Shown here: positions 45,650-47,228 of the stretch, in pieces | How positions within the stretch are numbered: the stretch's first letter is position 1 | Layout: each line of letters opens with the position of its first letter | DNA from: the human T2T-CHM13v2.0 reference genome, Homo sapiens | Direction: 5' to 3' (one strand) | Length of the DNA: 64,000 bases | Assembly (NCBI RefSeq): GCF_009914755.1 | Contig: NC_060925.1 | Notes under the pieces: generated by a model | What the model saw: the letters and a program-made list of their open reading frames with translations, nothing else | Databases searched by the model: none | Told to the model about the DNA's origin: nothing | Translations under genes and position numbers: made by a program

Positions 45650-46022
<373 letters not shown>

Positions 46023-46154
46023 TGAGTTATATACTGTCTTCAATTTATATTACTTAAGTGGTTTCCTTTAAAACTTTAATACAGATACTTAAGATCTCAC
46101 ATTTATCCCTACTCTCCATCTGATAATACAAGGAGCTTAGAATGCTTTAACTTC

Positions 46155-46289
46155 CTGCAGCCAATTAAGCCGACTGAGTTCCTTTCCTCATGGGGGCCCA
46201 GTGTGCAATGGCTGTAAATAGCAGCTTCCTTGGTAGTGTATGCAGCCTGTTTGTTGTATGGGTTGCTCTAAGGGACCTTGGAGACAGTC
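46155..46289 (+). ncRNA. SNORA70H: Box H/ACA snoRNA SNORA70 (U70) retrocopy
   Basis: 135 nt matching U70 (GCAGCCAATTAAGCCGACTGAGTTCCTTTCCTCATGGGG...); H box ATAGCA at 46218-46223, ACA at 46284-46286 three nt from the end. Paralog letter is from recall. Confidence 0.9.
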
Positions 46290-46337
46290 CTTTCAGATGG
46301 ATGTTCATGTTTCTGACCTTACACTACCCCAATGTAG

Positions 46338-46715
46338 GCTCCAAACTGGCATACGAGGTGCCTTTGGAAAGCCCCAGGGCACTGTGGCCAGGGTTCACAT
46401 TGGCCAAGTTATGTCCATCCACACCAAGCTGCAGAACAAGGAGCATGTGATTGAGGCCCTGCGCAGGGCCAAGTTCAAGTTTTCTGGCCGCCAGAAGATC
46501 CACATCTCAAAGAAATGGGGCTTCACCAAGTTCAATGCCAATTAATTTGAAGACATGGTGGCTGAGAAGCGTCTCATCCCAGATGGGTCAAGTACATTCC
46601 CAATCATGGCCCTCTGGACAAGTGGCGGGTCCTGCACTCATGAGGGCTTCCACTGTGCTGCCCCCTCTTAATACTCACCAATAAATTCTACTTTCTGTCC
46701 ACCTAAAAAAAAAAA
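46338..46715 (+). pseudogene. RPL10P4: Partial processed pseudogene of ribosomal protein L10/uL16 (last two coding exons fused, 3'UTR, poly(A))
   Basis: [68 protein letters not shown] matches RPL10 from about residue 111; premature TAA at 46543-46545, small deletion near 46585, original TGA at 46641, AATAAA at 46680, A-tail at 46705-46715. Pseudogene number is from recall. Confidence 0.93.
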
Positions 46716-46842
46716 TGCTTTAACTTCAGTTACCCCTCTCTCTTATGTACTTTTAGTCTGTTATTTTAGTTTTATCCTGATTCCCTCACATAAACATTAT
46801 TAGTATATTATTAGTGTTGTTTTATACAGTTGTTTAAATTTA

Positions 46843-47228
<386 letters not shown>

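What the first reader, a model, noticed from the sequence alone, without database searches (positions are those of the whole stretch)
46141..46727. Genomic fossil of a snoRNA-capped, partly spliced, polyadenylated RPL10 RNA
Seen: an exact 14-bp TSD AATGCTTTAACTTC (46141-46154 and 46714-46727) bounds the insert. The insert begins at the mature SNORA70 5' end (46155), runs through the snoRNA, keeps ~48 nt of downstream host intron ending in TAG (46337), then RPL10 coding sequence running through [10 protein letters not shown] with no intron, then 3'UTR, AATAAA and an A-tail. Established: SNORA70 sits in an RPL10 intron, and L1 retroposes poly(A)+ RNAs. Inference: the template was neither mRNA nor mature snoRNA but an RNA whose 5' end was set by the H/ACA snoRNP, with the last intron removed (an SPA-like lncRNA or a snoRNP-protected decay intermediate) that existed in the germline. 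snoRNA retrogenes carrying host sequence are a known class, so the class is not new, but the structure here is unusually clean.
Basis: partly seen in the sequence, partly recalled or inferred. Interest (0 to 1): 0.8.

Follow-up and report, generated by a model that had tools for sequence, protein, structure and literature searches.

The report
Known SNORA70–RPL10 snoRNA retrocopy
This is an old, dead L1-made DNA copy of an RPL10 RNA fragment that began at the SNORA70 snoRNA; it is real and cleanly preserved, but this kind of element, its origin and this very copy were already described in 2006.

Summary
An exact 14-bp target-site duplication brackets a 559-bp insert. The insert holds a full SNORA70 copy, 48 nt of the downstream RPL10 intron, the last two RPL10 exons joined with the 73-nt last intron removed, AATAAA and an A-tail.

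In this genome, 17 of 27 sister copies start within 5 nt of snoRNA nt 1. All 9 copies with a TSD of 13 bp or more start at nt -2 to +1. None reaches further into the upstream intron.

None of this is new. Weber (2006) defined this class as "Type-3 U70 snoRTs" and gave the same explanation. Luo and Li (2006) list a chr1 copy, U70b, that fits this one. The predicted poly(A)+ RNA (RPL10-SNORA70 3'-snoRT) was detected in long reads in 2025.

A chr12 copy is a daughter of this locus: it carries the locus's A-tail, TSD copy and 97 nt of 3' flank. All six TSD-verified truncated copies start at snoRNA nt 43-57.

The parts
46141..46154 (+). 5' copy of the target-site duplication AATGCTTTAACTTC. The empty-site top strand reads ..TTAG|AATG.., a partial match to the L1 endonuclease TT|AAAA preference.
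   Evidence: consensus as quoted from Weber 2006 section 15
46155..46289 (+). Full-length SNORA70 copy (RefSeq SNORA70H). An H-box-like ATAGCA and the ACA box 3 nt from the end are kept. There are 9 substitutions in 135 nt against today's parent.
46290..46337 (+). The 3'-most 48 nt of RPL10 intron 5 (the penultimate intron), ending in the acceptor TAG. It is collinear with the parent and could not be spliced, because the donor site lies upstream of the RNA's 5' end.
46338..46497 (+). RPL10 exon 6, with 4 substitutions and a 3-bp deletion. It ends ..GGCCGCCAGAAG (GRQK).
46498..46704 (+). RPL10 exon 7 and 3'UTR, joined to exon 6 with the parent's 73-nt intron removed. It carries an in-frame TAA at 46543-46545, a 7-bp deletion, AATAAA at 46680-46685, and ends at the parent's cleavage site.
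46705..46713 (+). A-tail of 9 A's. Two further A's belong to the TSD.
46714..46727 (+). 3' copy of the target-site duplication.
46728..46810 (+). 3' flank of the locus. It was co-retroposed, together with snoRNA nt 43 onward, the A-tail and the 3' TSD copy, into the chr12 daughter copy L008. A variant signal CATAAA lies at 46789-46794, 16 nt before the daughter's tail begins.

Best explanation
The element is a Type-3 SNORA70 (U70) snoRNA retroposon. It is an L1-mediated retrocopy of an RPL10-derived RNA with three features. Its 5' end was the H/ACA snoRNP-protected 5' end of SNORA70. It still carried the intron sequence downstream of the snoRNA, which could not be spliced because the donor site was gone. 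Its last intron had been removed, and it was polyadenylated at the normal RPL10 site.

L1 endonuclease and reverse transcriptase primed on the A-tail, copied the RNA to its 5' end and produced the 14-bp TSD. The copy is now a decayed fossil: it has no start codon, an in-frame stop and a frameshift.

Shown here: the anatomy, collinearity with the parent, the removed intron, the shared poly(A) site, the TSD, and the family-wide pile-up of 5' ends at nt -2..+1.

Inferred: how the RNA 5' end was made. The likely route is retention of intron 5, which puts a stop codon (AGG TGA) at the exon 5/intron border. That would make the transcript a target of nonsense-mediated decay, or of nuclear cleavage. 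A 5'-to-3' exonuclease would then be halted by the snoRNP.

After insertion the locus was transcribed on the + strand in the germline at least once, because a chr12 daughter copy carries its flank.
For: Anatomy and parent alignment.

Family counts:
- The searches of this genome and the 50 loci held gave 29 distinct Type-3 insertions and 10 ordinary mRNA-type RPL10 pseudogenes. These are lower bounds. Weber reported 30 and 12.
- Of 27 Type-3 loci scored by BLAST against the parent, 17 begin at parent positions 1494-1503 (snoRNA nt 1 = 1499), and 0 of 27 begin further upstream in the 338-nt upstream part of the intron.
- Among the 9 full-length copies with a TSD of 13 bp or more: L001 and L002 start at nt 1; L003, L004, L005 and L011 start at nt -1, a T templated by the parent intron; L010 starts at nt 1 or -2; L006 carries one extra C and L015 two extra G's.

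Stop codon in retained intron 5: parent exon 5 ends ..GACAG|GTGAGC.

Literature:
- Weber 2006: sections 8 and 15 read in full, passages of section 14.
- Luo and Li 2006: Table 1 and section 11 passages on partially processed, exon-containing hnRNA templates.
- Rambaldelli 2025: section 3.1 read in full plus passages. Poly(A)-selected nanopore reads show '3'-snoRTs' whose median 5' end lies two bases upstream of H/ACA snoRNAs. RPL10-SNORA70 was chosen as an example and detected by ddPCR, and a significant portion of the snoRTs identified there lay in the cytoplasmic fraction.
- Review PMC11028025, passages: the NOP56/SNORD86 cytoplasmic SPA is made through NMD cleavage.
Against: No RNA was examined here, so the template is inferred from DNA fossils.

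The L1 endonuclease site is only a partial match (AG|AATG against TT|AAAA).

The published long-read and ddPCR data come from somatic and cancer cells and tissues, not the germline.

The route by nonsense-mediated decay is an analogy with NOP56/SNORD86 and is untested for RPL10.

10 of the 27 Type-3 loci do not start at nt 1. Five are TSD-verified truncations. Five are too diverged, or interrupted, to place.

Whether the RNA came from RPL10 itself or from an older retrocopy is open (see the rival explanations).
Confidence: 0.9

Rival explanations
1. The architecture and mechanism are the same, but the source was not RPL10 itself. On this view the window copy (L001) was made from a transcript of an older Type-3 retrocopy, a 'master' lineage, and the snoRNA again set the 5' end.
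For: L008 proves that a retrocopy locus can be a source. In the tree L001, L002 and L008 form a clade (support 92/86) with L006 as sister (87/87). L001, L002, L005, L006 and L008 share C at alignment column 278, where an earlier-branching copy (L009), the younger copies and the parent have T. L001, L002 and L008 also share T at columns 134 and 344.
Against: The window insert carries no transduced flank of another copy; it starts at nt 1 and ends at the RPL10 cleavage site. Support for the clade is below the tool's star threshold. At least one shared site recurs elsewhere: column 279 A is also seen in an mRNA-type pseudogene (L022) and in L021. An X-linked RPL10 allele of that period could explain the shared states equally well.
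Confidence: 0.25
2. The copy is a simple 5'-truncated reverse transcript of a full-length, intron-5-retaining RPL10 mRNA. The end at snoRNA nt 1 would then be where L1 reverse transcriptase stopped.
For: Full-length intron-retaining RPL10-SNORA70 transcripts exist. 5' truncation is common in L1-made copies (established knowledge). Six family members are truncated inside the snoRNA.
Against: 0 of 27 Type-3 loci extend into the upstream part of the intron or into upstream exons. 9 of 9 well-resolved ends fall at nt -2..+1. Reverse transcriptase moves 3' to 5', so structure-induced stops should lie on the 3' side of hairpins. That is where the separate cluster at nt 43-57 lies, not at the last nucleotide after both hairpins have been copied.
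Confidence: 0.04
3. The copy is a chimera made by L1 reverse transcriptase switching templates from spliced RPL10 mRNA to mature SNORA70, as in U6-type chimeric retrogenes.
For: A full-length small RNA sits at the 5' end and an mRNA 3' part at the 3' end within one TSD, which is the outline of such chimeras (recalled; Weber's text cites template-switch chimeras).
Against: The snoRNA is followed without a break by the 48 nt of intron that follow it in the parent gene, and then by exon 6. Spliced mRNA does not contain that stub, so the two parts were one RNA. The same junction is present in all 27 Type-3 loci.
Confidence: 0.01
4. The copy arose by DNA-level (segmental) duplication of part of RPL10.
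For: None specific. One old Type-3 copy was later spread by segmental duplication (L039, L040, L044, L046-L050).
Against: One intron is removed, an A-tail sits at the mRNA cleavage site, a 14-bp TSD is present, and no flank is shared with the parent.
Confidence: 0.01

Closest known systems
Type-3 snoRNA retroposons (snoRTs) of U70/SNORA70, Weber 2006, PLoS Genet 2:e205 (PMC1687206)
   Same: Every defining feature matches: a start at the mature snoRNA 5' end, the entire downstream intron, processed 3' exons, a poly(A) tail and a TSD of about 14 bp. [quoted passage not shown]
   Different: Nothing in kind. The main text as searched does not mention copies made from copies. Its supplementary figures could not be opened.
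H/ACA snoRNA retrogenes from partially processed hnRNA, Luo and Li 2006, NAR 35:559 (PMC1802619)
   Same: Their Table 1 lists U70b on chr1 at 93.5% identity, with a poly(A) tail and a foldable structure. It is the only chr1 U70 entry. The identity measured here is 126 of 135, or 93.3%. U70n (chr12, 5'-truncated) fits L008, and U70m (chr12) fits L002.
   Different: The match of U70b, U70n and U70m to L001, L008 and L002 is my inference from chromosome, identity and truncation status, not a coordinate lift-over. They call the locus intronic, whereas the RefSeq table given with the finding places it between TIMM17A and RNPEP.
SPA lncRNAs, the cytoplasmic SPA of NOP56/SNORD86, and '3'-snoRTs' (snoRNA-retaining transcripts; Rambaldelli 2025, PMC12152556; Zacchini 2022, PMC9394076)
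   Same: These are living RNAs with the inferred template's architecture: a 5' end at or 0-2 nt upstream of a snoRNA and a poly(A) 3' end. RPL10-SNORA70 is among them.
   Different: They are RNAs, not genomic elements. The two snoRT papers contain no word beginning 'retropos', 'retrotranspos', 'pseudogene' or 'Weber'. The link to the 2006 retroposons is therefore not drawn there. The Prader-Willi SPAs arise from read-through polycistronic transcripts, not from a ribosomal-protein pre-mRNA.
Ordinary RPL10 processed pseudogenes
   Same: They were made by the same L1 machinery, share the same poly(A) site and have intron 6 removed (L018, L019, L022-L025, L033, L034, L036, L037).
   Different: Those copies carry the upstream exons with intron 5 removed, and no snoRNA. 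The window copy lacks exons 1-5 and keeps the snoRNA and the intron stub.
L1 3' transduction
   Same: The chr12 daughter L008 arose by read-through past the element's own poly(A) signal. It carried 97 nt of chr1 flank to a new site with its own tail and TSD.
   Different: The transducing unit is a non-autonomous snoRNA/RPL10 retrocopy, not an L1.

Membership tests
Type-3 snoRNA retroposon (Weber 2006) | 5' end coincides with the 5' end of the mature snoRNA | tested here: met
   The TSD ends at 46154 and Rfam model nt 1 is at 46155.
Type-3 snoRNA retroposon (Weber 2006) | Contains the entire intron sequence downstream of the snoRNA | tested here: met
   46290-46337 aligns to parent L020:1634-1681 up to the acceptor AG, with 2 substitutions in 48 nt.
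Type-3 snoRNA retroposon (Weber 2006) | Followed by the processed (spliced) 3' exons of the host gene | tested here: met
   Exons 6 and 7 are joined at 46497|46498. The parent's 73-nt intron L020:1845-1917 is absent.
Type-3 snoRNA retroposon (Weber 2006) | Poly(A) tail and a TSD of about 13-16 bp at an L1-type target | tested here: met
   A9 tail at the parent's cleavage site and an exact 14-bp TSD. The endonuclease motif is only partly matched (AG|AATG).
SNORA70 (Rfam RF00156) H/ACA snoRNA | Scores above the family's gathering threshold over the full model; H and ACA boxes present | tested here: met
   160.9 bits against 40, model positions 1-135. ATAGCA fits ANANNA, and ACA lies 3 nt from the end.
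SNORA70 (Rfam RF00156) H/ACA snoRNA | Expressed, dyskerin-bound and guiding pseudouridylation | not testable with these tools
   No paper in the library holds 'SNORA70H'. The snoRNA part is no better conserved than the rest: K2P 0.070 against 0.026-0.061.
SPA-like / 3'-snoRT RNA as the template | 5' end defined by the snoRNP; 3' end made by the canonical poly(A) machinery | tested here: met
   Met in the DNA fossil only: the pile-up of 5' ends and the shared AATAAA and cleavage site.
SPA-like / 3'-snoRT RNA as the template | No m7G cap; 5' end made by a 5'-to-3' exonuclease stalled at the snoRNP | not testable with these tools
   This needs RNA experiments. Only 1 of 9 resolved copies (L015) has extra G's at its 5' end, which is not decisive.
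Classical processed pseudogene of RPL10 | Copy of the mature, fully spliced mRNA | tested here: not met
   It retains 183 nt of intron 5 (snoRNA plus stub) and lacks all exons upstream of exon 6. The RPL10 part itself is real: Pfam Ribosomal_L16, 33.8 bits.
Template-switch chimeric retrogene (U6-type) | The junction between the small RNA and the mRNA part is not collinear with any genomic locus | tested here: not met
   The junction is collinear with the RPL10 gene.

The most novel reading that the evidence does not exclude
SNORA70 plus the RPL10 3' end may act as a portable, promoter-less cassette that defines both RNA ends. Wherever it lands in a transcribed region, the snoRNP would set a stable 5' end and the carried AATAAA, or the next signal, a poly(A) 3' end. 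That would regenerate a retroposition-competent RNA, so part of the family (L001, L002, L005, L006, L008) would be a lineage of copies made from copies rather than from RPL10. This would help explain why U70 has the most copies of any H/ACA snoRNA in Luo and Li's Table 1. One such event, chr1 to chr12, is shown here. Serial propagation beyond it is not shown.
Probability: 0.3. Interest if true: 0.4.

Novelty: already known. Interest (0 to 1): 0.15.

Why it matters
As it stands the finding is a textbook-quality example of a class described in 2006, so it adds little.

Its modest value lies in joining two literatures that share the acronym 'snoRT'. One is the 2006 genomic retroposons. The other is the 2022-2025 poly(A)+ snoRNA-retaining transcripts, some of them cytoplasmic and dyskerin-bound.

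If the latter are the templates, they answer Weber's open question of how a strictly nuclear snoRNA could meet the L1 machinery. The retrocopies would then be a dated germline record that such RNAs have existed since early in eutherian evolution.

The family also records how SNORA70 itself changed over time, including a compensatory base-pair switch.

Tried and rejected
- Covariance-model hits on the loci were all forced to model positions 1-135. They could not tell truncated from full copies, so TSDs and BLAST starts were used instead.
- The automatic TSD finder gave only weak matches of 7-10 bp for the old copies L012, L013, L016, L021, L027, L029, L030 and L031. It also picked a wrong match for L014, which I read by eye. 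Apart from L014, these copies were left out of the '9 of 9' count and the 'six truncated' count.
- L026, L029, L032, L035 and L038 have BLAST starts inside the snoRNA. They look like diverged or interrupted full copies, so they were not counted as truncations.
- A first shuffle test with 60 shuffles was too small and was repeated with 500.
- A first attempt to find the RPL10 reading frame from BLAST exon limits failed, because the limits were off by 1-3 nt. It was solved by reading the splice sites.
- Whether L002 is a second daughter of the window locus could not be settled.
- No primate genomes are held, so the insertion could not be dated by presence or absence.
- The earlier-findings tool and supplementary files were closed. 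Weber's Figure S3 and Table 3 and Luo and Li's supplementary list may show this locus or the chr12 copy in detail, and I could not see them.
- A literature search for 'SNORA70H' found 0 papers.
- Searches for 'snoRNA retaining' together with 'retrotranspos' or 'retropos' found 1 paper each, the same review. In the passages shown, that review does not name these RNAs as retroposon templates.
- One search was too unspecific to be of use.

Full report
**1. The observation**

The sequence is as described.
- The 14-mer AATGCTTTAACTTC occurs at 46141-46154 and 46714-46727.
- A 14-nt exact direct repeat anywhere in 45900-46950 at a spacing of 300-900 nt arose in 3 of 500 mononucleotide shuffles. A repeat sitting exactly at both ends of the insert has a chance of about 7e-9 per register.
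- Between the two copies, Rfam SNORA70 matches 46155-46289 over the whole model (1-135) at 160.9 bits, against a cut-off of 40. This is the second-best SNORA70 hit in the genome, after the chrX gene at 161.8 bits.

**2. The parent**

A search of the window's own assembly with the 559-bp insert found the source on contig C23 (locus L020). The exon limits follow from ten ordinary RPL10 processed pseudogenes and from reading the splice sites.

| Feature | L020 coordinates |
|---|---|
| Exon 5 | ends at 1159 |
| Intron 5 | 1160-1681 |
| SNORA70 (inside intron 5) | 1499-1633 |
| Exon 6 | 1682-1844 |
| Intron 6 (73 nt) | 1845-1917 |
| Exon 7, to the cleavage site | 1918-2135 |

The window insert aligns as follows.
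- It is collinear with parent DNA from the snoRNA through the 48-nt intron stub (46290-46337, ending TAG) and exon 6.
- It lacks exactly the 73-nt intron at 46497|46498.
- It ends at the parent's own cleavage site, 19 nt after AATAAA (46680-46685). Nine A's follow.

The RPL10 part reads ..[21 protein letters not shown], followed by an in-frame TAA at 46543-46545. It matches Pfam Ribosomal_L16.

Against today's parent there are 27 substitutions in 550 aligned bases, plus deletions of 3, 7 and 1 bp. The snoRNA part (K2P 0.070) is no better kept than the rest (0.026-0.061), so I see no sign of selection on it.

**3. The family and the 5' ends**

The two genome searches give lower bounds, as the tool states. 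Together with 20 further stretches they yielded 50 loci.

By BLAST against the parent the loci sort as follows.
- 27 loci have the Type-3 layout: snoRNA, stub, exon 6, exon 7, and no upstream exon.
- One old Type-3 copy was spread by segmental duplication to C9, C13, C14, C21 and C4 (L039, L040, L044, L046-L050).
- One more old Type-3 copy is L042.
- One copy ends in the stub (L041).
- 10 loci are ordinary mRNA-type pseudogenes.
- L043 and L045 are snoRNA-like only.

That makes 29 Type-3 insertions against 10 ordinary ones. Weber reported 30 and 12.

Of the 27 Type-3 loci:
- 17 begin at parent positions 1494-1503 (nt 1 = 1499);
- 5 are truncated, with their own TSDs;
- 5 are too diverged or interrupted to place;
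- 0 reach further into the 338 nt of intron upstream of the snoRNA.

| Copy (TSD of 13 bp or more) | Where the insert starts |
|---|---|
| L001, L002 | nt 1 |
| L003, L004, L005, L011 | nt -1, a T that matches the parent intron |
| L010 | nt 1 or nt -2 |
| L006 | nt 1 with one extra C |
| L015 | nt 1 with two extra G's |

These nine are all the full-length copies whose TSD is 13 bp or longer. The remaining eight full-length copies are older and have only weak TSD candidates, so they were not counted.

It agrees with the long-read result that the 5' ends of such RNAs lie a median of two bases upstream of H/ACA snoRNAs.

**4. Mechanism**

An RNA that begins at the snoRNA has lost the donor site of intron 5, so the stub cannot be spliced out. 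Intron 6 is complete and was removed. This explains the 'partly spliced' look without any special assumption.

How the 5' end arose is inference. If intron 5 is retained, the reading frame runs ..GAC AGG TGA, so a stop codon sits at the exon/intron border. It lies far upstream of the last exon junction. By the usual rule (established knowledge) this makes the transcript a target of nonsense-mediated decay. Cleavage followed by 5'-to-3' trimming would then stop at the snoRNP, as reported for the NOP56/SNORD86 cytoplasmic SPA (review passages).

Weber's 2006 wording is essentially the same: endonucleolytic cleavage, exonucleolytic degradation up to the snoRNA 5' end, and normal splicing and polyadenylation of the 3' part.

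The L1 steps follow from the A-tail, the 14-bp TSD and the partial endonuclease site.

**5. Rivals**

- Random 5' truncation of a full-length intron-retaining mRNA is contradicted by the distribution of ends.
- A template-switch chimera is excluded, because the snoRNA is followed by the very intron bases that follow it in the gene.
- DNA duplication is excluded by the removed intron, the tail and the TSD.
- One rival stays open: that the RNA came from an older retrocopy rather than from RPL10. In a maximum-likelihood tree the family is comb-like. The parent sits among the youngest copies, and L001, L002 and L008 form a clade at 92/86 support with L006 as sister at 87/87. These copies share a few states that neither the parent nor the flanking branches show. 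One of those sites, however, recurs in unrelated copies.

**6. What is known**

Weber 2006 (abstract, sections 8 and 15 in full, passages of section 14 and others) defines Type-3 snoRTs and singles out U70/RPL10.

Luo and Li 2006 (passages and part of Table 1) list 21 U70 copies, six of them 5'-truncated. They include U70b on chr1 (93.5% identity, with poly(A)), which I take to be this locus. It is the only chr1 entry, and I measure 126 of 135 = 93.3%. This match was not checked by coordinate lift-over.

Rambaldelli 2025 (abstract, section 3.1 in full, passages) detected RPL10-SNORA70 in a full-length form and a short 3' form.

Zacchini 2022 was only term-searched. Wu 2016 and Lykke-Andersen 2018 were not read. 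I know them from the review's passages and reference lists and from recall.

The finding is therefore already known.

(a) A daughter copy on chr12.
- L008 (C12, about 75663582-75664249, minus strand) aligns to window 46197-46810. That span runs from snoRNA nt 43 through the A-tail and the 3' TSD copy into 97 nt of chr1 flank.
- It then has its own A-rich tail and its own 12-bp TSD, AAGAAAATGTGT, at a TT|AAGA site.
- Its 5' flank is unrelated to the window.
- It is the only non-repeat flank shared among the Type-3 copies.
- It is therefore a retrocopy of a read-through transcript of this locus, ending 16 nt after a CATAAA.
- The two copies differ at 32 of 500 insert sites and 4 of 97 flank sites.
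- The window's 3-bp and 7-bp deletions and its TAA are absent from L008, so they arose later.
- Neither 2006 paper mentions such a relation in the text I searched.

(b) A cluster of truncated starts.
- The six TSD-verified truncated copies are L007, L008, L009, L014, L017 and L041. They start at nt 43, 43, 47, 47/48, 48 and about 57.
- This is the 3' arm of the 5' hairpin in the Rfam structure (pairs 2-5/50-53, 19-22/45-48, 25-28/39-42).
- They appear to be the six copies that Luo and Li marked as 5'-truncated.
- Reverse-transcriptase arrest at that hairpin fits. An RNA species lacking the 5' hairpin is not excluded.

(c) A compensatory change in the parent.
- Nearly all full-length retrocopies have U at nt 2 and A at nt 53, which are a base pair in the model. 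Today's parent has C and G.
- This looks like a compensatory switch that post-dates even the youngest copy holding both positions (L004).

**8. Age**

This is rough inference only. The path from the window copy to the parent lineage is about 0.04-0.045 substitutions per site. At a recalled neutral rate of 1-2e-9 per site per year, that suggests some tens of millions of years. It needs a presence/absence check in primates.

Noticed in passing
L008 = G000:C12:75663582-75664249 (minus strand); window 46197-46810: This chr12 copy is a daughter of the window locus. It holds snoRNA nt 43 to the RPL10 end, the window's A-tail, its 3' TSD copy and 97 nt of chr1 flank. It then has its own A-rich tail and the 12-bp TSD AAGAAAATGTGT. 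It shows that the chr1 copy was transcribed in the germline past its own poly(A) signal.
   Followed up: yes
L007, L008, L009, L014, L017, L041 (5' junctions): All six TSD-verified 5'-truncated SNORA70 retrocopies begin at snoRNA nt 43-57, the 3' arm of the 5' hairpin. None begins elsewhere in nt 58-183. The cluster suggests reverse-transcriptase arrest at that hairpin, or an RNA lacking it.
   Followed up: partly
L020:1500 and L020:1551 (parent SNORA70 nt 2 and nt 53); window 46156 and 46207: The parent has C2-G53, whereas the window copy and nearly all other full-length retrocopies have U2-A53. This is a compensatory change in the basal stem of the living gene, younger than the youngest copy that holds both positions (L004).
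   Followed up: partly
L020:1157-1165: Retention of RPL10 intron 5 gives ..AGG TGA, a stop codon at the exon/intron border. The intron-retaining mRNA should therefore be a target of nonsense-mediated decay.
   Followed up: partly
window 46410/46411; also L006 and L017: The same 3-bp deletion (ATC in GTTATCATG) is present in three copies. The window's own daughter L008 lacks it, so it arose independently more than once.
   Followed up: no
L039, L040, L044, L046-L050 (C9, C13, C14, C21, C4): One old, diverged Type-3 copy (about 70-77% identity to the parent) has been multiplied by segmental duplication. The copies share flanks at 94-100% identity.
   Followed up: no
L043 (G000:C1:201789107-201789236, minus strand, about 550 kb from the window) and L045 (C24, two places): These SNORA70-like sequences (56-64 bits) have no RPL10 part and share flanks at 97-98% identity between chr1 and contig C24. 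They are a different, older kind of paralog.
   Followed up: no
L041 = G000:C17:30720489-30720614 region: This copy ends inside the intron stub (parent position 1676) with a long A-tail and starts at nt 47. It has Weber's Type-2 layout and is also 5'-truncated.
   Followed up: no
L033 (C14:40.85 Mb) and L034 (C7:81.35 Mb): Two mRNA-type RPL10 pseudogenes end at the same internal position (parent 2078) and share 73 nt of 3' flank at 94.5% identity. One probably derives from the other, or both from a duplication.
   Followed up: no
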